From Candidatus Aminicenantes bacterium (GTDB lineage Bacteria; Acidobacteriota; Aminicenantia; Aminicenantales; Aminicenantaceae), in the NCBI GenBank assembly GCA_011049545.1, contig DRHQ01000161.1:17032-81031 (forward strand): 64,000 nt of DNA. The letters are read 5' to 3'. Position 1 is the first letter of the stretch; each line of letters opens with the position of its first letter. A model generated the notes under the pieces. It was not told the origin of the DNA. It searched no databases and saw only the letters and a list, made by a program, of their open reading frames with translations. Made by a program: the position numbers and the translations under genes. Below are positions 7,914 to 61,894 of the stretch, piece by piece.

Positions 7914-9386
7914 ATGATTAAAACACATAGACCAAAACTTGAGCTTTTAAGCAATGAATTGATCCAAAAAATCATAGATGAGGCATACATCATCCTTGAA
8001 AATCAAGGAGTTTTTATCGAGAACAAAGAGGCCCTGGCTCTGTTTCGAGAGGCGGGAATGAGGGTCGACACCTCCTCGCAGAGAGTTCAAATCACCGCAC
8101 AGCTCGTTGAAGACTCTCTTTCATCAACACCTCCCTCTCTGAAAATGTACGACAGGGACGGAGAAACTGAGTATCTCCTCGGTGGTGATGAAGTCCATTT
8201 TGATCCAGGCTCTGGGGCAGTCACCTTACTGGATTCCGAAACTCAGCAGGAAAGAAAGGCTATCACTGATGATTTGATCCGGTTTACTCATCTGACAGAT
8301 TGCCTCGAGCATCTCCACTTCCAGAGCACCGGAATTGTAAGCACCGATGTCTCCGAGATCATTTCGGACAGCTATCGACTTTATATCGGACTCTTATTCT
8401 CCAAAAAACCCATAGTCACCGGGACATTTCGGGTAGAAGGGTTCGAACCCATGCGCAGAATGCTCGTCGCCGTAAGGGGAAGTGAAAGGAATCTTGCGGA
8501 AAAACCTCTGGCAATATTCGACGCTTGCCCCTCCCCTCCTCTGAAATGGAGCAATTTGACAGCACAGAGCTTGATCGATAGCGCCCGGGCGGGAATTCCG
8601 TCCGAGCTGATTTCTATGGGGATGACGGGAGCCACTTCTCCCATCACGATCACAGGTACACTCGTCCAGCATGTCGCTGAAAACCTATCGGGACTGGTGA
8701 TCTGCCAGCTCGCAAAAAAAGGTGCGCCTGTTATTTTCGGCGGCTGTCCGGTGAGCTTCGACATGCGGACGGGCACAACTCCTATCGGCGCTATAGAGAC
8801 GATGATGATCGACTCAGCGCACACACAGATCGGCAAACATTTCAACCTTCCTACACACGCGTACATGGGAATGAGTGACGCCAAGATCAACGATGCCCAG
8901 GGAGGTTTTGAAACCGGGATAGGCGTGATTATGGCCGCGCTTTCAGGTGTTAACGTGATATCCGGGGCAGGGATTTTAGATTTCGTCAGGTGCCAGAGTC
9001 TGGAAAAGCTGGTCGTGGACAATGAGATCTGCGGGATGGCTTATCGATTGATAGACGGAATAGCACAGCGCGATGAACCGATCGCCCTGAATCTTTTTAA
9101 AGATTTCTCTGCCGAAACACAGTTTCTATCTATGCCCCATACGAGAAAATGGTACAGGGAAGAACATACATTTCCCAAGTTGATCGATCGAGATCCGTAT
9201 GATACCTGGGTATCCAAAGGGAGAAAATCAATAACTGCCCGGGCCAAAGAAGAGGTCAAAAATCTGTTGCAAAAGAATGCCCCCCCTCTTCCAGATAAGG
9301 AAACACAAAAGGCTCTCAGAGAAATCATGATGTCCGATGCCCGGACAAACGACACGCCTTCTTTACCTGACATCAGCTTCCCCTAA
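7914..9386 (+). CDS. MttB-superfamily methyltransferase (non-pyrrolysine member)
   Basis: 490 aa with an N-terminus and length typical of trimethylamine/glycine-betaine methyltransferase family proteins. The reading frame is uninterrupted, with no in-frame TAG. Confidence 0.7.
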   Translation: MIKTHRPKLELLSNELIQKIIDEAYIILENQGVFIENKEALALFREAGMRVDTSSQRVQITAQLVEDSLSSTPPSLKMYDRDGETEYLLGGDEVHFDPGSGAVTLLDSETQQERKAITDDLIRFTHLTDCLEHLHFQSTGIVSTDVSEIISDSYRLYIGLLFSKKPIVTGTFRVEGFEPMRRMLVAVRGSERNLAEKPLAIFDACPSPPLKWSNLTAQSLIDSARAGIPSELISMGMTGATSPITITGTLVQHVAENLSGLVICQLAKKGAPVIFGGCPVSFDMRTGTTPIGAIETMMIDSAHTQIGKHFNLPTHAYMGMSDAKINDAQGGFETGIGVIMAALSGVNVISGAGILDFVRCQSLEKLVVDNEICGMAYRLIDGIAQRDEPIALNLFKDFSAETQFLSMPHTRKWYREEHTFPKLIDRDPYDTWVSKGRKSITARAKEEVKNLLQKNAPPLPDKETQKALREIMMSDARTNDTPSLPDISFP

Positions 9387-19317: not shown

Positions 19318-19465
19318 GGATTTGATAAATCAAACCTCTACACAAGAAAAACCAAACGCTTACATAAGAAAAATTAAAACCGTTCAGTTTATTTACATAA
19401 TCGAAAAGGTGGGCTTGATAAATCAAGCCCTTACAGAAGAAGAATCAAAATCCTACAGAACAATC
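19318..19465 (-). repeat. GTAG-hairpin (REP-like) element, one full and one degenerate copy
   Basis: Hairpin GGGCTTGA-TAAA-TCAAGCCC (19411-19430) followed by TTAC, preceded by the conserved AAAACCGTTCAGTTTATTTACATAATCGAAAAGGT. Same family as the arrays at 33.5 and 42.5 kb. Confidence 0.8.
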
Positions 19466-19475
19466 AAACATCTTG

Positions 19476-19497
19476 GGGGTCAGGTCTTGTTTTTTGC
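19476..19497 (+). repeat. solo copy of the 22-bp GGGGTCAGGTCTTGTTTTTTGC end sequence
   Basis: Exact match to the inverted ends that bracket the RAYT gene at 60.8-61.8 kb. No inverted partner is nearby. Confidence 0.8.
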
Positions 19498-20355: not shown

Positions 20356-20451
20356 CTATACCCTTAAAAGGAGTATCTCGTTTATAATCTAAATCAGGAA
20401 AATTGTAAATATCTTTTATTAAAAATAAGGTGATTCTTTCTAATAATCGTG

Positions 20452-20545
20452 GATTTATCATTGACAGGGTATATTTCTTCTATCTATTATTATCTAAAGA
20501 GAATGTCAGGAGGTGGAAATTGAATAAAAATGAGCCGAAATCAAT
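20452..20545 (+). repeat. 94-bp direct repeat copy 1 (promoter + RBS + first codons)
   Basis: 83/94 identical, without indels, to 23012-23105. It contains TTGACA (20461-20466), an 18-nt spacer, TATTAT (20485-20490), AGGAGG, and TTG AAT AAA AAT GA. Confidence 0.9.
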
Positions 20546-22846: not shown

Positions 22847-22861
22847 AGACATTTATCGCTT

Positions 22862-22995
22862 GGGGTCAGGTCTTGTTTTTTGCTTTTTGTCACAATATTT
22901 CTTAGCTAATGCTATCAATTTCAGTTCAATGCCCTCTTTTCCCGTCTTATTACTGCATGTCAAAAGTTGAAAAGCAAAAAACAAGACTTGATCCC
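22862..22995 (+). mobile_element. 134-bp MITE/REPIN-like element with 22-bp terminal inverted repeats
   Basis: Left end GGGGTCAGGTCTTGTTTTTTGC, right end GCAAAAAACAAGACTTGATCCC. About 88% identical over its full length to the inverted element at 28238-28371. Confidence 0.8.
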
Positions 22996-23011
22996 ATTTA
23001 CTGCATCCGTA

Positions 23012-23105
23012 GATTTTTCATTGACAGGGTATGTTTCCTCTATCTATTATTATCTACAGAGCAGGTCAGAAGGTAGAAATTGAATAAAAATGAACTGAAC
23101 TCAAT
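23012..23105 (+). repeat. 94-bp direct repeat copy 2 (native promoter/5' end of the 23080 gene)
   Basis: Partner of 20452-20545. TTGACA 23021-23026 and TATTAT 23045-23050. Confidence 0.9.
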
Positions 23106-28205: not shown

Positions 28206-28237
28206 AACTTATTTTTTGACTCCCATTTGTATCCTTG

Positions 28238-28371
28238 GGGGTCAGGTCTTGTTTTTTGCATCTCAACTTTTGAAATATAGTAATAAGACGAGAAAAGAGG
28301 GCATCGAAAAGAAATTGCTAGCATTCGCTAAATAATATTATGACAAAAAGCAAAAAACAAGACCTGACCCC
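28238..28371 (-). mobile_element. 134-bp MITE/REPIN-like element (inverted copy of 22862-22995)
   Basis: Perfect 22-bp TIRs at 28238-28259 and 28350-28371. The core aligns without indels to the other copy. It ends 2 nt from the ADH stop codon. Confidence 0.85.
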
Positions 28372-28373
28372 AA

Positions 28374-33534: not shown

Positions 33535-33537
33535 TAT

Positions 33538-33865
33538 TGTAGGGGCTTGATTCTTATGTATGTATTCTTCTGTAGGGGCTTGATTCATCAAGCCCACCTG
33601 TCGATTCCGTATCGATTGATTAATGAAATCCAAATTGATTGTATGGATTTGATTCTTCTGTAGGGGCTTGATTCATCAAGCCCACCTGTTTGAATATATC
33701 AATAAACTGAACGGTTTTAATTTTTCTTATATATACATTTGGTTTTTCTTCTGTATGGATTCTCCTGTAGGGGCTTGATTCATCAAGCCCACCTGTTTGA
33801 ATATATCAATAAACTGAACGGTTCTGATCCTTCTCATGTATGGATTCTTCTGTAGGGGTTTGAGA
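33538..33865 (+). repeat. tandem array of GTAG-hairpin (REP-like) elements
   Basis: Three full copies with GTAG followed by GGGCTTGA-TTCA-TCAAGCCC (hairpins 33576-33595, 33664-33683, 33771-33790), plus two partial copies. Period 85-107 bp. Confidence 0.9.
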
Positions 33866-33940
33866 AAAAAGTAGCCTGTCCCCTTTTTTTATGATATCTT
33901 GATTTCGCCAATTCTGTAAAACATCATTAAGGAGAATTTC

Positions 33941-36324: not shown

Positions 36325-36386
36325 TAAAGCTTATCCCTTAGCAATATTTGTCGTTGCGTACGCAGCCCGACAATCTAATAGGATAT

Positions 36387-36506
36387 GTCATTGCGAGGTG
36401 CACAGCGACGCGGCAATCTCAACCTTTTTTTATGAGATTGCCACGCTCCCTTCGGTCGCTCGCAATGACAGGCGAAGGAATCTTCCGCGTCCCTCGCAAT
36501 GACAGG
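36387..36506. repeat. nested palindromic repeat element (CTCGCAATGAC family)
   Basis: GTCATTGCGAGG (36387-36398) is inverted relative to CTCGCAATGACAGG at 36459-36472 and 36493-36506. The inner 10-bp hairpin is GGCAATCTCA/TGAGATTGCC (36412-36442). Confidence 0.7.
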
Positions 36507-36667
36507 CTAAGGAATCTCATAAAAAATACTGAGCTATCCGCCACTCTGGGTGTTTGCTTGGGAGCTGATACTCCGCTTAAAGTAATTTAGACAACTCCCA
36601 ATGTTGACTAAAGGTGCGAAATAAACTATTTTTTTTATTTAGGACTTCCTCCAAATAATTATACTTC

Positions 36668-40035: not shown

Positions 40036-40165
40036 GGTTCCCTCCGTAAACAGGATCTTTTGCTGGACATTCTATATAAAGCTTCTGCAATCTTTATGCC
40101 AAATAGTATTAGGCTAAAGCGAAGCTTCTAAGTTGTTTTTTTGTCCTCTTTTACAGCCAGCTGTA

Positions 40166-40508
40166 TCCAAACGGGGTCAGGCTTGCGAAACTTGTCCAAA
40201 CGGGGTCAGGCTTGCGAAACTTGTATAACTAATAATCGGCTGAGTCAGACTTTCAAAATCTTGGTAATTCTGCTCGACCTTTAAGGCAGGGGCAAAATAA
40301 TGCAAGTCCAAACGGGGTCAGACCTTGAAAACTTGGATTTTCAATTTTCGAAAAAAATCTAAGTTACAGAAGTTTGGGAGGCCTGACCCCACTTATGTGG
40401 AGACCTGACCCCCAATTCGGCAAAATAATGCAAGTTTTGCAAGTCTGACCCCACTTATTTCAATTCGGCAAAATAATGCAAGTTTTGCAAGTCTGACCCC
40501 ACTTATTT
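40166..40508. repeat. cluster of family-2 GGGGTCAGRCTTGCRAAACTTG repeats in convergent orientation
   Basis: Tandem 29-bp copies at 40166-40194 and 40195-40223, with further forward copies near 40240 and 40308. Inverted copies run from 40377 on and include tandem 48-bp units at 40413-40460 and 40461-40508. Confidence 0.85.
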
Positions 40509-40518
40509 CCACTTATTG

Positions 40519-40547
40519 TTGACTTTTGAGGAGCGAGAAATTAGAAT
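40519..40547 (+). promoter_or_regulatory. sigma70-type promoter for fbp
   Basis: TTGACT (40519-40524), 17-nt spacer, TAGAAT (40542-40547). AGGAGGAGG SD before ATG 40590. Confidence 0.55.
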
Positions 40548-42195: not shown

Positions 42196-42255
42196 TACAT
42201 TCTTATGCTCAATCACGCTCCTTCGATCACAATGACAAAAGAATAGAAAAGGGAA

Positions 42256-42507
42256 ATGGATAAAATAAAAGAAAAAGAGAAAAAATCAGAAGAAGATTTA
42301 GGGCTAAAAGAAGTTCATACAGTCTGGGGCCCGGTTGAAGCTGATGTGATTAAAAGTTTTCTCCAAAGCAACGGAATTTCCTGCCTTCTTAGAGGAAGAG
42401 TGGTTCAATCTGTCCATCCGTTTTCCACGGATGGCCTGGGAGAGGTAAAAATTCTTGTCCCCAAAAAAGACTATGCCCTTGCCAAAAAACTCCTTAAAAA
42501 CAAATAA
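42256..42507 (+). CDS. DUF2007-like small protein
   Basis: 83 aa. The pattern ..EADVIKSFLQSNGI.. and the length resemble the putative signal-transducing DUF2007 family. Confidence 0.5.
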   Translation: MDKIKEKEKKSEEDLGLKEVHTVWGPVEADVIKSFLQSNGISCLLRGRVVQSVHPFSTDGLGEVKILVPKKDYALAKKLLKNK

Positions 42508-42534
42508 GGGGATAGCTCAGGGAATCAATATTGA

Positions 42535-43040
42535 CTGTAGGAACATTATTTATCAAGCCCCTACAGAAGAAGAATCCCGCCAGATGAATCAAAACCTTTC
42601 AGTTTATTTATATATTTGAAAAGGTGGGTTTGATGAATCAAACCCCTACAAGAATCAAGCCCCTACATAAAAATCCCAACCTAAGAAGAATCAAAACCTT
42701 TCAGTTTATTGATATATTTGAAAAGGCGGGTTTGATGAATCAAACCCCTACAGAAGAAAAACCCCATCAATAGAAGAAACATCCGCACAGATAAATCAAA
42801 TCCAGACATAAGAAAAACCAAAACCTTTCAGTTTATTTATATATTTACAAAGGTGGGTTTGATGAATCAAACCCCTACAGAAGAATCCCAACAGAAGAAG
42901 GATCCGGACAGATGAATCCGTATATAAGAAGAACCAAATACAGACATAAGAAAAATAAAAAACCTTTCAGTTTATTGATATATTCAAAAAGGTGGGTTTG
43001 ATGAATCAAACCCCTACAGAAGAATATGTACATAAGAATA
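42535..43040 (-). repeat. tandem array of GTAG-hairpin (REP-like) elements, opposite orientation
   Basis: Four full copies with hairpin GGGTTTGA-TGAA-TCAAACCC followed by CTAC (42626-42649, 42728-42751, 42855-42878, 42994-43017). Two partial copies near 42553 and 42655. Confidence 0.9.
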
Positions 43041-43183
43041 AAATTCCCACAAAACCCACTACATAATATAAACCAAACATCCACAGAACAACCAAAATAT
43101 AACTCTCTATATAGTAGCCAATCATAAATTCCCACAATATATAGAAAACAAAAAAATATATGGTTTTTTTTTGAATTATTTCC

Positions 43184-43212
43184 TTGACAACAGACAGTAT
43201 CTCCCCTATATT
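43184..43212 (+). promoter_or_regulatory. sigma70-type promoter of the dcw cluster (Pmra-like)
   Basis: TTGACA (43184-43189), 17-nt spacer, TATATT (43207-43212). Confidence 0.6.
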
Positions 43213-43220
43213 TTACAAAA

Positions 43221-43245
43221 TGGGATAAAACGGGACAAAATGGGA
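43221..43245 (+). promoter_or_regulatory. putative MraZ operator: three YGGGA boxes at 10-bp spacing
   Basis: TGGGA-TAAAA-CGGGA-CAAAA-TGGGA. It lies just downstream of the -10 and overlaps the mraZ ATG. Confidence 0.55.
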
Positions 43246-43707
43246 AATTTCTTATTAGGAAGCTACACAGTAAGGGTCGATAAAAGCGGCCGAATAAAGA
43301 TACCAGAAAAATTCCGCCTCGTTCTGGAAGAAGAATACGGAAAAGAAATATTCATAACTTCTCTAACGGATGAATCCGTCCAGGTTTACCCTCTCCCAGT
43401 CTGGGAAGAGTTGTCAGGCGTTTCAGAAGAGGTAGCCCTTCACCTCCAACCCACGGTGAGAAAATTCATGCTCCGGGTTAACAGAAAAGGCAACCAAATT
43501 CGTATTGACTCAAAAGGACGAATCTTGATCAGCCAGACTTTGAGAGAAAAGGCAAAACTGGAAGATGAAGTTGAAGTTATCGGTCTTTCCAATCACTTAG
43601 AAATTTGGAACAAATATAAGCTCGACGGGACAATCGAAGAGAAGCCTCTAACAAACGAAGATTTTGAAAAAATCGCAGAACTCATGCCCCGGGGAAAACC
43701 TAAATGA
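43240..43707 (+). CDS. mraZ: transcriptional regulator MraZ
   Basis: Two SpoVT/AbrB-like halves (VDKSGRIKIPEKFR and IDSKGRILISQTLR). Start placed at ATG 43240, because the longer TTG ORF covers the promoter. Confidence 0.9.
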   Translation: MGNFLLGSYTVRVDKSGRIKIPEKFRLVLEEEYGKEIFITSLTDESVQVYPLPVWEELSGVSEEVALHLQPTVRKFMLRVNRKGNQIRIDSKGRILISQTLREKAKLEDEVEVIGLSNHLEIWNKYKLDGTIEEKPLTNEDFEKIAELMPRGKPK

Positions 43708-51975: not shown

Positions 51976-53118
51976 ATGGAAATATTCAGACCCTACGGCT
52001 TTGATAAACCTCTTTTTTTCACGACTCTCATCATGATCGCCATGGGGCTAATTATGGTTTACAGTTCATCAGCCATTTTAGCCAGTGAAAAATATGATAA
52101 TTCTTTCCATTTCTTCATAAATCAAAGCATTGCGGCTGGGATTGGAATAATCCTTATTTTTCTGATGATGCCCATAAGGAAGCCATTTTTCCAAAATTTT
52201 TACTTTGTCCATGGACTTCTTATCTTCTCTTTTGCTCTCTTGGTGCTCTGCTTACTCATGCCAGCTGTGGCTAACACAAACCGCTGGGTCCAGTTCTTCG
52301 GCCTCAGGTTCCAACCATCGGAACTGGCAAAAATCAGTCTTATTTTGTTTTTTGCTTCCTATTTTAACCGGAAAAAAGAAAAATTGAATGAATTTCAAAC
52401 CCTTATTTTCCCGCTGACAGTTCTTTTTCTGTTTATCCTCTTAATCATAAAAGAGCCTGATTACGGCACTGCCCTTCTCATCTTTATCATCTGCTCGATA
52501 ATGCTCTTCATCGGGGGAGTGAAGTTCAAACACCTATGTTACCTGGGAACCCTGTTTTTGGGTCTTTTTGCCTTTTATCTTTTCCAGGCTTCATACAGAA
52601 TAGACAGAGTCTTTACCTTTTTATCGCCTGCAAAAGATCCCCAGGGCGCTGGTTTCCAGAGTATCCAATCAAAGCTAGCAGTCGGCTCAGGAGGTTTATT
52701 CGGGGTAAGTATCGGAGAAAGCACCCAAAAACTTTTCTTTCTTCCCTGCGCTCACACCGATTACATATATGCCATCCTGGGGGAAGAAATAGGTTTTATT
52801 GGCGCCATATTCACCCTGCTTCTCTTCTTTGTTTTTTTCTGGAGAGGACTGGTGATTTCCCAAAGGGCACCCAATTTCTCCTCGCAAATTGTCGCCGCAG
52901 GACTAACGATGGCCATCTTTTCTCAAGCTTTGCTGAACATAAGCATTGTCCTGGGCTTGGGTCCACCGACCGGCATCCCTCTTCCTCTGATCAGCTTCGG
53001 AAGGTCTTCCCTGATATGTACTCTTTTCAGCATAGGAATTCTTCTCAATATCTCGCAGAGAAGGAGTACCAGTCGAATAAGAAAAGGCGGATTTGATAAA
53101 TCGAACCCTTACGGATAA
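51976..53118 (+). CDS. ftsW: SEDS-family peptidoglycan glycosyltransferase FtsW
   Basis: 380 aa, polytopic. QPSELAK and EPDYGT motifs. Confidence 0.9.
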   Translation: MEIFRPYGFDKPLFFTTLIMIAMGLIMVYSSSAILASEKYDNSFHFFINQSIAAGIGIILIFLMMPIRKPFFQNFYFVHGLLIFSFALLVLCLLMPAVANTNRWVQFFGLRFQPSELAKISLILFFASYFNRKKEKLNEFQTLIFPLTVLFLFILLIIKEPDYGTALLIFIICSIMLFIGGVKFKHLCYLGTLFLGLFAFYLFQASYRIDRVFTFLSPAKDPQGAGFQSIQSKLAVGSGGLFGVSIGESTQKLFFLPCAHTDYIYAILGEEIGFIGAIFTLLLFFVFFWRGLVISQRAPNFSSQIVAAGLTMAIFSQALLNISIVLGLGPPTGIPLPLISFGRSSLICTLFSIGILLNISQRRSTSRIRKGGFDKSNPYG

Positions 53119-59171: not shown

Positions 59172-59227
59172 ATTCTCCTCTATTCTCTTCGTACAGCCTC
59201 ATCAGCATATACTTATCAACAACACTT

Positions 59228-59452
59228 GGGGTCAGGTCTTGTTTTTTGCTTTTTGCCTTTACTCATACAAACGCCATTTATACTAATGCATTATATTGCG
59301 TACGATCCAGCTCTTTTTATAAATGGGAAGAAGAGCGTGGCAGAATCTCATACTGAGGATAGAAAATATCTATGTCATTTTCATCCTTGCAATGAAATTT
59401 CAAGGCGTTTGTATGAGATTTTTGAGAAAAGCAAAAAACAAGACCTGACCCC
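59228..59452. mobile_element. 225-bp MITE/REPIN-like element with the 22-bp GGGGTCAGGTCTTGTTTTTTGC TIRs
   Basis: Perfect TIRs at 59228-59249 and 59431-59452. A second nested inverted repeat CTCATACAAACGCC / GGCGTTTGTATGAG. The core is unrelated to the 134-bp elements. Confidence 0.8.
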
Positions 59453-59478
59453 ATCATATGACAAGGCAAGGACAAAGT

Positions 59479-60756: not shown

Positions 60757-60789
60757 AGATTAAAGATTGAAAAAATTAAATCTCCAATT

Positions 60790-61848
60790 GGGGTCAGGTC
60801 TTGTTTTTTGCAATGGGTGCAATAGGGATCATACAATAGGGATCAGGCATTGTTTTTTGCCTTTTTTGCGATTTTACCTACGCAAGAATAATGCAATCCT
60901 ACAAACTTACCTACATCTTCTAAGCTATACCTCCACCGGTTAATGGCGATTGCAATGCCTTCATCCCGTTCTTTCCCAGTAAATATGTCTTTCAGATTCA
61001 GCTTACTAACATACTTCTCCCTTTTAGCAATTTCTTCACAATCTATAATTTTGTTTTTTTCCATCACACTCTTTACAAACTTTTCTCCGCCTAAAATAAA
61101 TCCTCCATGCGCCTCTTTGAATGGACTTTCTTTCCCTATTCCTTCTCTAACATATGTCATGTATCCTTTTTGGGCATCGGCTAAAGAGTTGGAAAAAAAC
61201 GATAGGATTAAATCCGGATATAAATATATGTAACGCTTTCTATCTTCAAAGGTTTTTCTGTATGAAGAATATTCCCATTCTAAAGGGTCATGAACAATCC
61301 CAGCTCGAACTGGATTAAGAACAATATAGCGACAAACTTCTAAAAGATAGCTCTCTTTTTCTATCAGATAAGCTTTGAATCTTCCTTGAAAGAGATGTCC
61401 AATTCTCCCATGTTTCTTATTGAAACTTTGAGTATAAACACCATTTAATTGTCTCATCCCCGCTGATAAATTTTTCAGAGGAGTCTCAATAACCAGATGA
61501 TAATGATTACCCATCAAACAATAAGCGTGCACAATCCATCTATACTTTTCTGCCACAGATTCTAAGATCTTAATAAACCTATTTCTATCAACATCATTTG
61601 TAAATATATCTTTCTTTTCATTACCCCTTGCAGTTATATGATAAAATGCTCCCTCATATTGGATTCTTAAAGGTCTCGCCATTTTAAAATATCAAGAACT
61701 TAGAACTAAAACAGATTCTATTATCTATGATCTATGAGAATGACGAGGTTTATAACGAAAATTGCTCAAATCTTCTTTAATTTCTGCTGGAAACAAAATT
61801 GATTCTAAAACCAATATTTAATAAATGCAAAAAACAAGACCTGACCCC
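60790..61848 (-). mobile_element. RAYT-bearing element bracketed by 22-bp inverted repeats (REPtron-like)
   Basis: GGGGTCAGGTCTTGTTTTTTGC at 60790-60811 and its exact complement at 61827-61848 flank the Y1 transposase gene. Confidence 0.8.
60843..61682 (-). CDS. REP-associated tyrosine transposase (RAYT / IS200-like Y1 HUH) with C-terminal HTH
   Basis: 279 aa. HUH motif in GNHYHLVIE and catalytic Tyr region CRYIVLNPVRAG. The C-terminal region (..VGKFVGLHYSCVGKI..) looks like a DnaA-type HTH. Confidence 0.85.
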   Translation of the reverse strand: MARPLRIQYEGAFYHITARGNEKKDIFTNDVDRNRFIKILESVAEKYRWIVHAYCLMGNHYHLVIETPLKNLSAGMRQLNGVYTQSFNKKHGRIGHLFQGRFKAYLIEKESYLLEVCRYIVLNPVRAGIVHDPLEWEYSSYRKTFEDRKRYIYLYPDLILSFFSNSLADAQKGYMTYVREGIGKESPFKEAHGGFILGGEKFVKSVMEKNKIIDCEEIAKREKYVSKLNLKDIFTGKERDEGIAIAINRWRYSLEDVGKFVGLHYSCVGKIAKKAKNNA

Positions 61849-61894
61849 AAATCAATATTTGACCCCCAAATCATGTTCCTGAGTTTAAGAGCGC

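What the first reader, a model, noticed from the sequence alone, without database searches (positions are those of the whole stretch)
42535..43040. Four-copy array of the same hairpin family directly upstream of the dcw promoter
Four full units read AAAACCTTTCAGTTTATTKATATATTTGAAAAGGT-GGGTTTGA-TGAA-TCAAACCC-CTAC-AGAAGAA. Two half units are also present. All are in the opposite orientation to the 33.5-kb array. Together they fill most of a 730-bp ORF-free gap that ends about 150 bp before the mraZ -35 box. The intervening segments are built from degenerate ACAGAAGAA / ACATAAGAA motifs, so the whole tract is quasi-periodic (101-138 bp). An array this size abutting the main cell-division promoter could affect transcription read-in, DNA topology or nucleoid-protein binding.
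Basis: seen in the sequence. Interest (0 to 1): 0.65.

Follow-up and report, generated by a model that had tools for sequence, protein, structure and literature searches.

The report
Tandem REP-element cluster upstream of mraZ
The four-copy "hairpin array" in front of the cell-division gene cluster is real, but it is a cluster of REP elements (short, selfish, palindromic intergenic repeats spread by a tyrosine transposase) whose copy number changes between closely related strains while the promoter next to it stays the same, so it is an ordinary kind of bacterial junk-like DNA in an unusual, little-studied lineage.

Summary
Observation confirmed: four ~75-nt units lie at 42591-43024 (spacing 102/127/139 nt), with half-units and ACAKAAGAA relics. 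The family recurs at 19.3 kb, 33.6 kb (opposite strand) and 53.09 kb.

Identity: the invariant core, read on the minus strand, is GTAG + GGGTTTGA-TTCA-TCAAACCC. That is a GTAG-tagged, 8-bp perfect palindrome, the defining architecture of REP elements. It is strictly extragenic. Its one variable stem pair co-varies (C-G 100, T-A 46, non-Watson-Crick 8 of 154). The exact 24-mer flanks RAYT (Y1 transposase) genes as REPtrons in Endomicrobiales and Omnitrophota MAGs and occurs in MAGs labelled as many different phyla. The first "hairpin" of the unit is not a conserved structure; it is a lineage-specific A/T-rich leader co-amplified with the REP.

Dynamics: near-identical strains assembled independently carry 4 units, 4 units + 38 bp, or 3 units. 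Relatives with MraZ at least 88% identical carry 0-3 REPs, always in the same orientation. More distant relatives mostly have none. The ~145-bp mraZ promoter block (43100-43245) is conserved regardless. It is not an assembly artefact.

Verdict: a new member of a known kind, a head-to-tail REP cluster in an Aminicenantes-like genome. A regulatory role at dcw is possible by analogy with E. coli REPs but is unsupported here. Interest is low to moderate.

The parts
42550..42571 (+). Half-unit 0: 3' stem arm + CTAC + tail (TCAAGCCCCTACAGAAGAAGAA), preceded by a degenerate 5' arm
42591..42656 (+). Unit 1: A/T-rich leader 42591-42625 plus REP 42626-42649 (GGGTTTGA-TGAA-TCAAACCC-CTAC) plus tail
42653..42675 (+). 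Half-unit (TCAAGCCCCTACATAAAAA), 17 nt after the CTAC of unit 1
   Evidence: (period-17 repeat 42635-42667)
42693..42758 (+). Unit 2: leader plus REP 42728-42751 plus CTACAGAAGAA
42759..42819 (+). Linker made of degenerate half-REP relics (..CCATCAATAGAAGAA / CCGCACAGATAAATCAAATCCAGACATAAGAAAAA)
42820..42885 (+). Unit 3: leader plus REP 42855-42878 plus tail
42886..42958 (+). Linker of relics. It is the site of the 38-bp insertion/duplication polymorphism (after 42919) seen in L116
42959..43024 (+). Unit 4: leader plus REP 42994-43017 plus tail. Absent, as an exact 139-bp difference, in strains L117 and L118
43025..43099 (+). Degenerate relic tail (ACATAAGAA, CCCACTACATAA, ATCCACAGAACAA) between the last REP and the conserved promoter block
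43100..43245 (+). Conserved mraZ promoter block, not part of the repeat. It holds two TATATAG motifs, an A/T tract, -35 TTGACA (43184-43189), -10 TATATT (43207-43212) and three 10-nt-spaced (A/C)GGGA MraZ-box-like repeats (43215-43245). The mraZ ATG is at 43243
19318..19460 (+). Second locus of the family: one degenerate REP (19318-19341), one full unit (leader plus REP 19411-19434) and relics. It lies between an OMP gene end and an M14 peptidase gene start
33537..33881 (-). Third locus: three REPs (33572-33595, 33660-33683, 33767-33790), two of them with the leader, plus half-units. It lies between the alanine racemase gene end and the cyclophilin gene start
53089..53112 (+). Solo, slightly degenerate REP (GGATTTGA-TAAA-TCGAACCC-TTAC). 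It overlaps the last codons of ftsW and lies 12 nt before the murG start
60843..61682 (-). Context only: a RAYT-family Y1 transposase gene in the window. It is flanked by a different inverted repeat (GGGGTCAGGTCTTGTTTTTTGC), so it is not shown to be the enzyme for this REP family

Best explanation
The tract is a head-to-tail cluster of REP elements (GTAG-tagged repetitive extragenic palindromes). It sits in the spacer between a DUF2007 gene and the conserved mraZ promoter block of an Aminicenantes-like bacterium from marine sediment.

The functional core of each unit is the 24-nt REP. Read on the minus strand it is GTAG + an 8-bp perfect stem + a 4-nt loop. As single-stranded DNA this is the recognition substrate of REP-associated tyrosine (Y1/HUH) transposases (RAYT). 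These enzymes cleave at CT/CA dinucleotides beside the hairpin.

Inferred history:
1. One REP entered this spacer in an ancestor of the clade (MraZ at least ~88% identical).
2. The REP, together with ~35 nt of A/T-rich 5' flank and its CTAC-AGAAGAA tail, was then amplified locally.
3. It has since been expanded and contracted by slippage or unequal recombination between the identical cores. This gives 0-4 copies, all in one orientation, plus a 'stutter' of 17-19-nt half-units.
4. The composite unit also reached at least two other intergenic sites.

The cluster is most likely selectively near-neutral selfish DNA tolerated just outside the promoter block. Any effect would be secondary and of the kind documented for E. 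coli REPs: an RNA hairpin at the 3' end of the upstream DUF2007 transcript, or attenuation of read-through into dcw.
For: Shown here:
- Core architecture. All copies have GTAG plus a perfect 8-bp palindrome plus a 4-nt loop. Stem pairing is 100% in 19 units, with one compensatory pair (C-G 12, U-A 7). Over 154 copies from many genomes that pair is C-G 100, T-A 46 and non-Watson-Crick 8, against 67.5 expected if the two sides were independent.
- Extragenic location. 0 of 73 copies lie inside ORFs of at least 110 aa. All three arrays in the window are intergenic.
- Link to the transposase. The exact REP flanks RAYT genes (Pfam Y1_Tnp; best NCBIfam match REP_Tyr_transpos) in L058, L200 and L016. 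This RAYT clade has more than 1500 homologues, several named RayT by JGI.
- Distribution. The 25-mer was found in more than 113 stretches from MAGs labelled as many different phyla, against roughly 4 chance hits expected (my own estimate).
- Dynamics. Near-identical strains carry 4 units, 4 units + 38 bp, or 3 units. The 139-bp difference is bounded by the 38-nt identical core, and the 38-bp difference by a 19-nt direct repeat. Relatives carry 0-3 REPs, always on the + strand.
- Promoter. The promoter block is conserved whether or not REPs are present.
- Arrangement. Head-to-tail in 13 of 13 neighbour pairs in the window and close relatives, and in 16 of 20 in Aminicenantes-like MAG loci. Half-units are lineage-specific.

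From the literature:
- Definition of GTAG REPs, and clusters of singletons reiterated in tandem with flanking DNA (PMC3733652).
- RAYT binds the GTAG + palindrome as single-stranded DNA and cleaves at CT/CA (PMC8266576).
- REPs act as 3'UTR stabilisers and partial terminators in E. coli (10.64898/2026.03.23.713779).

Inferred, not shown: the order of events, the amplification mechanism and near-neutrality.
Against: - No cognate RAYT gene flanked by this REP was found in the window or in any Aminicenantes-like locus held. The only Y1 gene in the window is flanked by a different repeat. Mobilisation in this lineage is therefore inferred from other phyla.
- The genome-wide copy number in this organism could not be counted. 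The only estimate is a 14-20-fold excess of core words over the flanks in one low-coverage run.
- REPs have persisted at this one site, in one orientation, across a clade. That is also what selection for a local function would produce.
- The direction of the 3-versus-4-unit change (gain or loss) is unknown.
Confidence: 0.8

Rival explanations
1. The array is maintained by selection as a regulatory spacer. As RNA, the REP hairpins would stabilise the 3' end of the upstream FBPase-Nudix-DUF2007 transcript and attenuate read-through into dcw. As DNA, they would bind gyrase or a nucleoid protein and insulate the mraZ promoter. Copy-number changes would then tune dcw expression between strains. This is compatible with the repeat being a REP; it differs only on function.
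For: - REPs are retained at this same spacer, in one orientation, in nearly all relatives with MraZ at least 88% identical.
- The upstream genes are co-directional, and no canonical terminator lies between DUF2007 and mraZ.
- E. coli REP325 is both a partial Rho-dependent terminator and an mRNA stabiliser.
- Gyrase, IHF and Pol I binding have been reported for BIMEs (PMC2817692).
- RNA-library contigs start at 43224 or 43245/6, that is, downstream of the array. This is consistent with dcw transcription initiating at its own promoter.
Against: - Copy number ranges from 0 to 4 with no accompanying change in the promoter block.
- Relatives with MraZ at most 82% identical mostly have short, REP-free spacers in front of the same promoter.
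- Orientation relative to transcription is not fixed in the family (GTAG-sense 21, CTAC-sense 13). The two other arrays in the window have the opposite sense.
- A single orientation at one site is expected from local duplication alone.
- No RNA 3' ends could be mapped, because only contigs were available.
Confidence: 0.15
2. The palindromes are operator sites for a dimeric DNA-binding protein (a regulator, partition protein or iteron-binding protein). The array would then be a protein-binding platform rather than a mobile-element relic.
For: The 20-bp near-perfect palindrome, the compensatory preservation of symmetry and the quasi-periodic spacing would also fit a dimer-binding site.
Against: - The same 24-mer occurs in MAGs labelled as many different phyla, in unrelated intergenic contexts.
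- It directly flanks RAYT genes.
- The asymmetric GTAG tag and the asymmetric loop (TGAA/TAAA) are conserved.
- Half-sites are amplified on their own.
- No regulator gene is linked to it in the window.
Confidence: 0.03
3. Each unit is a small-RNA gene or a structured cis-regulatory RNA (a tandem sRNA array or a leader of the dcw mRNA).
For: - Unit folds are somewhat more stable than shuffles (z -2 to -3.6).
- REP cores occur in metatranscriptome contigs.
Against: - No Rfam family matches.
- No promoter-like site lies within the units.
- Only the REP stem is conserved; helix 1 shows no covariation and changes break its pairs.
- The leader is not conserved outside the species-level clade.
- The family occurs in either orientation relative to genes.
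- RNA contigs that carry the core have other flanks, that is, they come from REPs embedded in other mRNAs.
Confidence: 0.02
4. The tandem copies are an assembly expansion or collapse artefact.
For: - Short-read contigs often break in the repeat (L119 ends in unit 1).
- Many ambiguous joints appear when unitigs are laid on the tract.
Against: - An independent assembly is identical over 6.2 kb (L115).
- Unique linkers are covered by exact unitigs, at single-copy depth in run X1.
- The longest exact repeat between units (38 nt) is shorter than the k=127 recorded in the contig names of the 3-unit assemblies. Those contigs also differ by SNPs elsewhere, so they are real alleles.
Confidence: 0.01

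Closest known systems
GTAG-tagged REP elements / REPtrons (Nunvar 2010, PMC2817692; Di Nocera 2013, PMC3733652; Corneloup 2021, PMC8266576), especially the perfect-palindrome type exemplified by Stenotrophomonas REPs (8-bp stem, 3-nt loop)
   Same: - A terminal GTAG followed by a short perfect palindrome.
- Multicopy and extragenic.
- Stem changes are compensatory.
- The same REP flanks RAYT genes in inverted orientation (L058, L200, L016).
- Clusters are built from a singleton reiterated in tandem together with flanking DNA.
- Length differs between strains.
   Different: - The host lineage is Aminicenantes-like and uncultivated, and the stem/loop sequence was not found in the searched literature.
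- The arrangement is almost exclusively head-to-tail, which is rare or absent in most genomes surveyed by Di Nocera.
- There are abundant 17-19-nt half-unit 'stutters'.
- An identical 24-mer is shared by MAGs labelled as many different phyla.
- The cognate RAYT has not been located in this lineage.
BIMEs (bacterial interspersed mosaic elements) of E. coli and Stenotrophomonas
   Same: A composite, modular intergenic cluster of REPs with variable inter-REP segments and variation in module number between strains.
   Different: BIMEs are defined by regularly spaced REPs in alternating orientation. Here all REPs point the same way (13 of 13 neighbour pairs), so that defining feature is not met.
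REPINs (Bertels and Rainey 2011, PMC3116915)
   Same: In the other phyla the same REP occurs mainly as inverted doublets with the GTAG tags outside (50 of 79 neighbour pairs), which are REPIN-like.
   Different: In the window and its clade there are no inverted doublets, so the unit cannot form the long REPIN hairpin.
Streptococcus pneumoniae BOX elements and other modular intergenic repeats (recalled from general knowledge, not tested)
   Same: A modular structure with a variable number of an internal module, an intergenic location, and copy-number variation between strains.
   Different: No sequence relationship; BOX elements have no GTAG-tagged palindrome and no RAYT association.

Membership tests
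REP (GTAG-tagged repetitive extragenic palindrome) | Short (20-40 nt) stem-loop-forming palindrome | tested here: met
   An 8-bp perfect stem with a 4-nt loop in all four units and in 19 of 19 aligned units.
REP (GTAG-tagged repetitive extragenic palindrome) | Conserved GTAG tetranucleotide at one end of the palindrome | tested here: met
   CTAC (TTAC in 2 copies) immediately follows the stem on the + strand, which reads GTAG-stem on the - strand, in every window copy.
REP (GTAG-tagged repetitive extragenic palindrome) | Multicopy and dispersed in the genome | tested here: inconclusive
   The 64-kb window holds 8 intact REPs plus 2 degenerate ones and several half-units, at 4 loci. Core words are 14-20x deeper than the flanks in run X2. 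Closest-relative MAGs have many loci. No complete genome was available for a count.
REP (GTAG-tagged repetitive extragenic palindrome) | Extragenic location | tested here: met
   0 of 73 copies lie inside ORFs of at least 110 aa. The one window copy at 53089-53112 overlaps only the last codons of ftsW.
REP (GTAG-tagged repetitive extragenic palindrome) | Palindrome preserved by complementary changes | tested here: met
   The variable pair is C-G 100, T-A 46 and non-Watson-Crick 8 of 154, against 67.5 expected if independent. In A3 the pair shows 7 double changes and no breaks.
REP (GTAG-tagged repetitive extragenic palindrome) | Cognate RAYT gene flanked by the same REPs (REPtron) | tested here: inconclusive
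   Met in other phyla: L058, L200 and L016. Not found in the window or in Aminicenantes-like loci. The window's Y1 gene (60843-61682) is flanked by a different repeat.
REP (GTAG-tagged repetitive extragenic palindrome) | Binding and cleavage of the single-stranded REP by RAYT | not testable with these tools
   This needs a biochemical assay of the kind described in PMC8266576.
BIME | REPs regularly spaced in alternating orientation | tested here: not met
   All neighbouring REPs are head-to-tail: 13 of 13 in the window and close relatives.
REPIN | Two REPs in inverted orientation forming one long hairpin | tested here: not met
   There are no inverted doublets in the window arrays. Such doublets are present for the same REP in other phyla.
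CRISPR array | Identical repeats separated by unique spacers of constant length, usually with cas genes | tested here: not met
   The inter-palindrome segments are themselves repeated (leader, relics) and vary in length from 102 to 139 nt. No cas domains were found in the window ORFs scanned.
MITE | Terminal inverted repeats and target-site duplication | tested here: not met
   The units have no terminal inverted repeats. Target-site duplications were not looked for specifically. A different family in the window (GGGGTCAGG...) does have TIRs.
Intrinsic terminator | GC-rich hairpin followed by a U-tract on the transcribed strand | tested here: not met
   On the + (mraZ-sense) strand the stem is followed by CUACAGAAGAA. 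Only one unit scores as terminator-like, and on the - strand.
Any Rfam RNA family | Score at or above the family gathering threshold | tested here: not met
   There are no hits at gathering thresholds. Only chance-level matches (E at least 2.5) fall in 42400-43300.

The most novel reading that the evidence does not exclude
One RAYT clade (56-71% identical among the 120 best-scoring homologues) and an almost invariant 24-nt REP are shared by MAGs labelled as many different phyla: Aminicenantes, Omnitrophota, Elusimicrobia/Endomicrobiales, WOR-3, Atribacterota, Planctomycetes, Patescibacteria and possibly Altiarchaeota. That would mean either repeated horizontal transfer of a REP-RAYT module among sediment and groundwater microbes, or extreme constraint on the REP. 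This contrasts with the usual view of REP/REPIN-RAYT systems as lineage-specific and vertically inherited. Within Aminicenantes the REP would have switched to a distinct propagation mode (head-to-tail arrays with half-unit stutter), perhaps without a resident RAYT. The mraZ-proximal array would then act as a strain-variable dial on read-through into the cell-division operon.
Probability: 0.2. Interest if true: 0.55.

Novelty: new member of a known kind. Interest (0 to 1): 0.3.

Why it matters
For the dcw cluster itself it matters little. The promoter block is intact and conserved, and the array is dispensable.

The finding does three useful things:
1. It explains several 'mysterious' intergenic repeats in this window at once, as REP elements.
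2. It shows that REP/RAYT biology, studied almost only in Proteobacteria, extends to uncultivated phyla with a shared REP sequence.
3. It provides natural 0-, 1-, 2-, 3- and 4-copy alleles at one locus. These could be used to test whether REP number tunes read-through between operons.

The repeats also fragment short-read assemblies (contigs end in the REP), which is practically relevant for MAG quality in these lineages.

Tried and rejected
- Rfam at gathering and permissive thresholds found nothing relevant.
- The promoter/terminator scan found no promoter inside the units and no sense-strand terminator.
- Helix 1 of the unit (AACCKTT/AAAAGGT) was tested for covariation and rejected as a conserved structure. 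Its sequence is conserved only in the species-level clade.
- An exact look-up of the window's MraZ in public assemblies found nothing. The DUF2007 neighbour worked instead.
- A RAYT search with E. coli RayT and with the L058/L200 RAYTs over all held loci found no cognate gene in Aminicenantes-like loci.
- L030's Y1 gene is flanked by an unrelated palindrome, and the Caldatribacteriota RAYTs (L201, L202, L205) have no flanking REPs.
- Metatranscriptome runs are held only as contigs from related strains. No contig spans the unique linkers, so transcription of the array could not be decided.
- G·T versus C·A asymmetry, as a test of which strand folds, gave 4 versus 4 and is uninformative.
- A literature search for the exact REP sequence gave no hits.
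- CRISPR, MITE, iteron/operator, sRNA-array and assembly-artefact readings were considered and rejected (see rival explanations and membership tests).
Full report
**1. The observation**

The tract is as described. The 35-nt leader occurs four times with at most 2 mismatches, at 42591, 42693, 42820 and 42959 on the + strand (none expected by chance). Each leader is followed by an exact GGGTTTGATGAATCAAACCC and then by CTAC-A(G)AAGAA. Start-to-start spacing is 102, 127 and 139 nt.

Half-units, consisting of the 3' stem arm plus CTAC, lie at 42550-42571 and 42653-42675. The linkers are made of degenerate ACAKAAGAA-type relics. That motif occurs 17 times in the window against 1.4 expected, and 15 of the 17 are inside the three arrays.

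The same family occurs at three further places:
- 19318-19460 (+),
- 33537-33881 (-),
- a solo, slightly degenerate copy at 53089-53112 (+), at the ftsW/murG junction.

The gap from the DUF2007 stop (42507) to the mraZ ATG (43243) is 735 bp. The sigma-70-like promoter is TTGACA-17-TATATT at 43184-43212, followed by three 10-nt-spaced MraZ-box-like repeats.

**2. It is not an assembly artefact, and it is polymorphic**

The neighbouring DUF2007 protein was found, identical, on contigs of five independent assemblies. Their DUF2007-mraZ spacers compare as follows:
- L115 is identical to the window over 6.2 kb.
- L116 (matching the window at 99.9-100% outside the indel) has four units plus a 38-bp insertion in the unit 3/unit 4 linker, bounded by a 19-nt direct repeat.
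- L117 and L118 (marine-sediment assemblies) have three units and lack exactly 139 bp. The breakpoints fall within the 38-nt sequence shared by units 3 and 4.
- L119 ends inside unit 1.

The longest exact repeat between units is far shorter than the k=127 recorded in the names of the 3-unit contigs. Those contigs also differ by SNPs elsewhere, so they are real alleles.

Unitigs from two DNA runs cover the unique linkers exactly. In run X1 they do so at single-copy depth. The REP core words are 14-80 times deeper than the flanks.

**3. What the repeat is**

Read on the minus strand, the conserved core is GTAG followed by GGGTTTGA-TTCA-TCAAACCC. This is a GTAG tag plus a perfect 8-bp palindrome with a 4-nt loop. 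That is the defining architecture of GTAG-type REP elements (PMC3733652, PMC2817692). It is closest to the perfect-palindrome type studied in Stenotrophomonas (PMC8266576).

I estimate about 4 chance hits. The stretches come from MAGs labelled Aminicenantes, Omnitrophota, Elusimicrobia, WOR-3, Atribacterota, Planctomycetes, Thermodesulfobacteriota, Patescibacteria, Zixibacteria and others. Some labels may be binning errors. The Altiarchaeota hits, for example, are 1.7-2.2-kb contigs.

The exact REP flanks RAYT genes in three loci:
- In L058 (Endomicrobiales) a 145-aa Y1_Tnp protein is bracketed by GTAGGGGCTCGATTTATCGAGCCC upstream and GGGTTTGATAAATCAAACCCCTACA downstream. This is a textbook REPtron.
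- L200 (Omnitrophota) has four REPs upstream and more downstream of a 65%-identical RAYT, including GTAGGGGCTTGATTCATCAAGCCC.
- L016 is a third case.

This RAYT clade has more than 1500 homologues. The 120 best-scoring ones are 56-71% identical to the L058 protein, and several are named RayT by JGI.

Other REP criteria were also tested. The one variable stem pair co-varies: C-G 100, T-A 46 and non-Watson-Crick 8 of 154, against 67.5 expected if the two sides were independent. None of 73 copies in the window and Aminicenantes-like loci lies inside an ORF of at least 110 aa. Rfam has no matching family.

**4. What is and is not part of the element**

In 19 units from the window and its closest relatives only 74% of cells pair. 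No pair co-varies, and substitutions break pairs. The REP stem, by contrast, is 100% paired with one compensatory pair.

Across Aminicenantes-like genomes only a short A-rich ..AAGGT/ATGT flank precedes the REP. The 35-nt leader is confined to the window's species-level clade. The 75-nt unit is therefore a REP singleton amplified together with flanking DNA. This is the composition Di Nocera et al. describe for large REP clusters.

Because the composite unit also sits at 19.3 kb and 33.6 kb, it has moved or been copied between loci as a whole.

**5. Lineage-specific organisation**

The window is about 88-91% identical in DNA to a MAG mislabelled 'Eubacteriales' (CAYUXD01). It is 77-79% identical to an Aminicenantes MAG.

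In the window and close relatives all 13 neighbouring REP pairs are head-to-tail. In Aminicenantes-like MAG loci 16 of 20 are. In other phyla the same REP is mostly one arm of an inverted, REPIN-like doublet whose partner has a different stem (50 of 79 pairs have the GTAG tags outside).

Free half-units are also lineage-specific. There are 17 per 31 full REPs in close relatives and 36 per 65 in Aminicenantes-like loci, against 4 per 81 elsewhere. Their preferred periods are 17-19 nt.

[quoted passage not shown] BIMEs are defined by alternating orientation. The array is therefore a REP cluster but not a canonical BIME or REPIN.

**6. History at the mraZ locus**

Eighty metagenomic loci encoding MraZ relatives were compared.
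- With MraZ at least 88% identical, the spacer almost always carries 1-3 REPs, always in the + orientation. L129 and L133 keep only degenerate relics.
- At 82% identity and below, spacers are mostly short and REP-free. L146 and L150 have one REP each.

The roughly 145-bp block from AATTCTCTATATAGTAG through TTGACA-17-TATATT and the three (A/C)GGGA boxes is conserved with or without REPs. The last REP can abut it within a few nucleotides.

The simplest reading is one old insertion followed by local expansion and contraction through slippage or unequal recombination between the identical cores. The polymorphisms in section 2 are exactly of that kind.

**7. Function**

They could apply here, since the upstream genes are co-directional and no sense-strand terminator lies in the spacer.

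Nothing found here requires such a function:
- Copy number is free to vary.
- The promoter block does not co-vary with the array.
- The family shows no fixed orientation relative to transcription (21 versus 13).
- In mraZ sense the hairpin is followed by CUACAGAAGAA, not a U-tract.

RNA-library contigs from related strains show DUF2007 and mraZ/rsmH expression. Three contigs from two runs start at 43224 and two at 43245/6, just downstream of the predicted -10. REP cores also appear embedded in other transcripts, including the ftsW-REP-murG junction. These are contigs from libraries of uncertain purity, and none spans the array's unique linkers.

I therefore rate the selfish, near-neutral REP-cluster explanation at about 0.8. 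I rate a selected regulatory role at about 0.15; the two are not mutually exclusive.

**8. The transposase question**

The window does encode a RAYT-family protein at 60843-61682 (-). It matches Pfam Y1_Tnp at 8e-15 and scores 85.7 bits against NCBIfam REP_Tyr_transpos, above the cutoff of 80.

It is flanked by inverted copies of a different repeat, GGGGTCAGGTCTTGTTTTTTGC. That repeat fits the GGGGWSAS TIR motif of the 'TIRtrons' described by Di Nocera et al., who noted a well-defined acidobacterial group of the encoded transposases. It also forms MITE-like 136-230-nt elements elsewhere in the window.

This protein is only about 24% identical to the L058 RAYT. The enzyme that moves the GTAG REP in this lineage is therefore unidentified. 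It may lie elsewhere in the genome or have been lost.

**9. Verdict**

The feature is a new member of a known kind.

The aspects that go beyond the textbook are:
- the cross-phylum sharing of one REP and one RAYT clade,
- the head-to-tail and half-unit propagation mode in Aminicenantes-like genomes,
- a natural allelic series of 0-4 REPs in front of the cell-division operon.

Noticed in passing
window 60778-61860 (gene 60843-61682, - strand); also 22857-22996, 28233-28373, 59223-59453, 19471-19497: A RAYT-family Y1 transposase gene (NCBIfam REP_Tyr_transpos, 85.7 bits against a cutoff of 80) is flanked by inverted GGGGTCAGGTCTTGTTTTTTGC repeats. This matches the 'TIRtron' type (TIR motif GGGGWSAS). 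The same termini bound MITE-like elements of 136-230 nt elsewhere in the window, and a solo copy abuts the 19.3-kb REP array.
   Followed up: partly
window 40141-40520: A cluster of related repeats lies upstream of the class-V FBPase gene: a 29-nt unit x2 (+1 diverged) and a 48-nt unit x2 (+1 diverged). They carry GGGGTCAGRC/GYCTGACCCC in opposite orientations and together form a large inverted-repeat structure.
   Followed up: no
window 53089-53112: A solo REP (GGATTTGATAAATCGAACCCTTAC) supplies the last ~9 codons of ftsW and ends 12 nt before the murG start. RNA-library contigs of related strains run ftsW-REP-murG, so this copy is transcribed inside the dcw operon.
   Followed up: partly
window 43100-43245: The mraZ promoter block is conserved in relatives down to ~70% MraZ identity. 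It holds two TATATAG motifs, an A-tract/T-tract, TTGACA-17-TATATT and three 10-nt-spaced (A/C)GGGA MraZ-box-like repeats that overlap the ATG. RNA-library contigs begin at 43224 (three contigs, two runs) and at 43245/6.
   Followed up: partly
window 8871-8970 (within ORF 7914-9386): An Rfam PYLIS_3 (pyrrolysine insertion sequence, mttB) hit barely above threshold (39.7 against 38 bits) lies inside an uninterrupted 490-aa MttB-family ORF. Whether this is a non-Pyl MttB homologue with a vestigial element was not examined.
   Followed up: no
window 36386-36520 (weaker copy near 42214-42245): A third small repeat family: palindromic units of the type TGTCATTGCGAG...GCAATCTC / GAGATTGCCACG...CTCGCAATGACA, three copies in one intergenic region. 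The same motif precedes the DUF2007 gene in relatives.
   Followed up: no
window 20448-20545 and 23008-23105: A 98-nt direct repeat (88% identical) covers a TTGACA-type promoter-like site, a ribosome-binding site and the first codons of two different ORFs (an amidohydrolase at 20430 and an unannotated 390-aa ORF at 23080).
   Followed up: no
L201, L202, L205 (Caldatribacteriota-type contigs); L058, L200, L016: The RAYT clade linked to this REP is 56-71% identical (to the L058 protein) among its 120 best-scoring homologues, whose few source names include Omnitrophota, Caldatribacteriota and Nitrospinota. In Caldatribacteriota-type contigs it sits in a fixed position between pfk and mfd with no flanking REPs, which looks domesticated. 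In Endomicrobiales and Omnitrophota it is surrounded by several REP stem variants.
   Followed up: partly
L120/L121 about 2050-2120 (mraZ spacer of a 99%-MraZ relative): In this relative the REP array is interrupted by a GGCCTGACCCCATAGG-type (GGGGWSAS-like) repeat insertion. The two repeat families therefore accumulate in the same permissive spacers.
   Followed up: no
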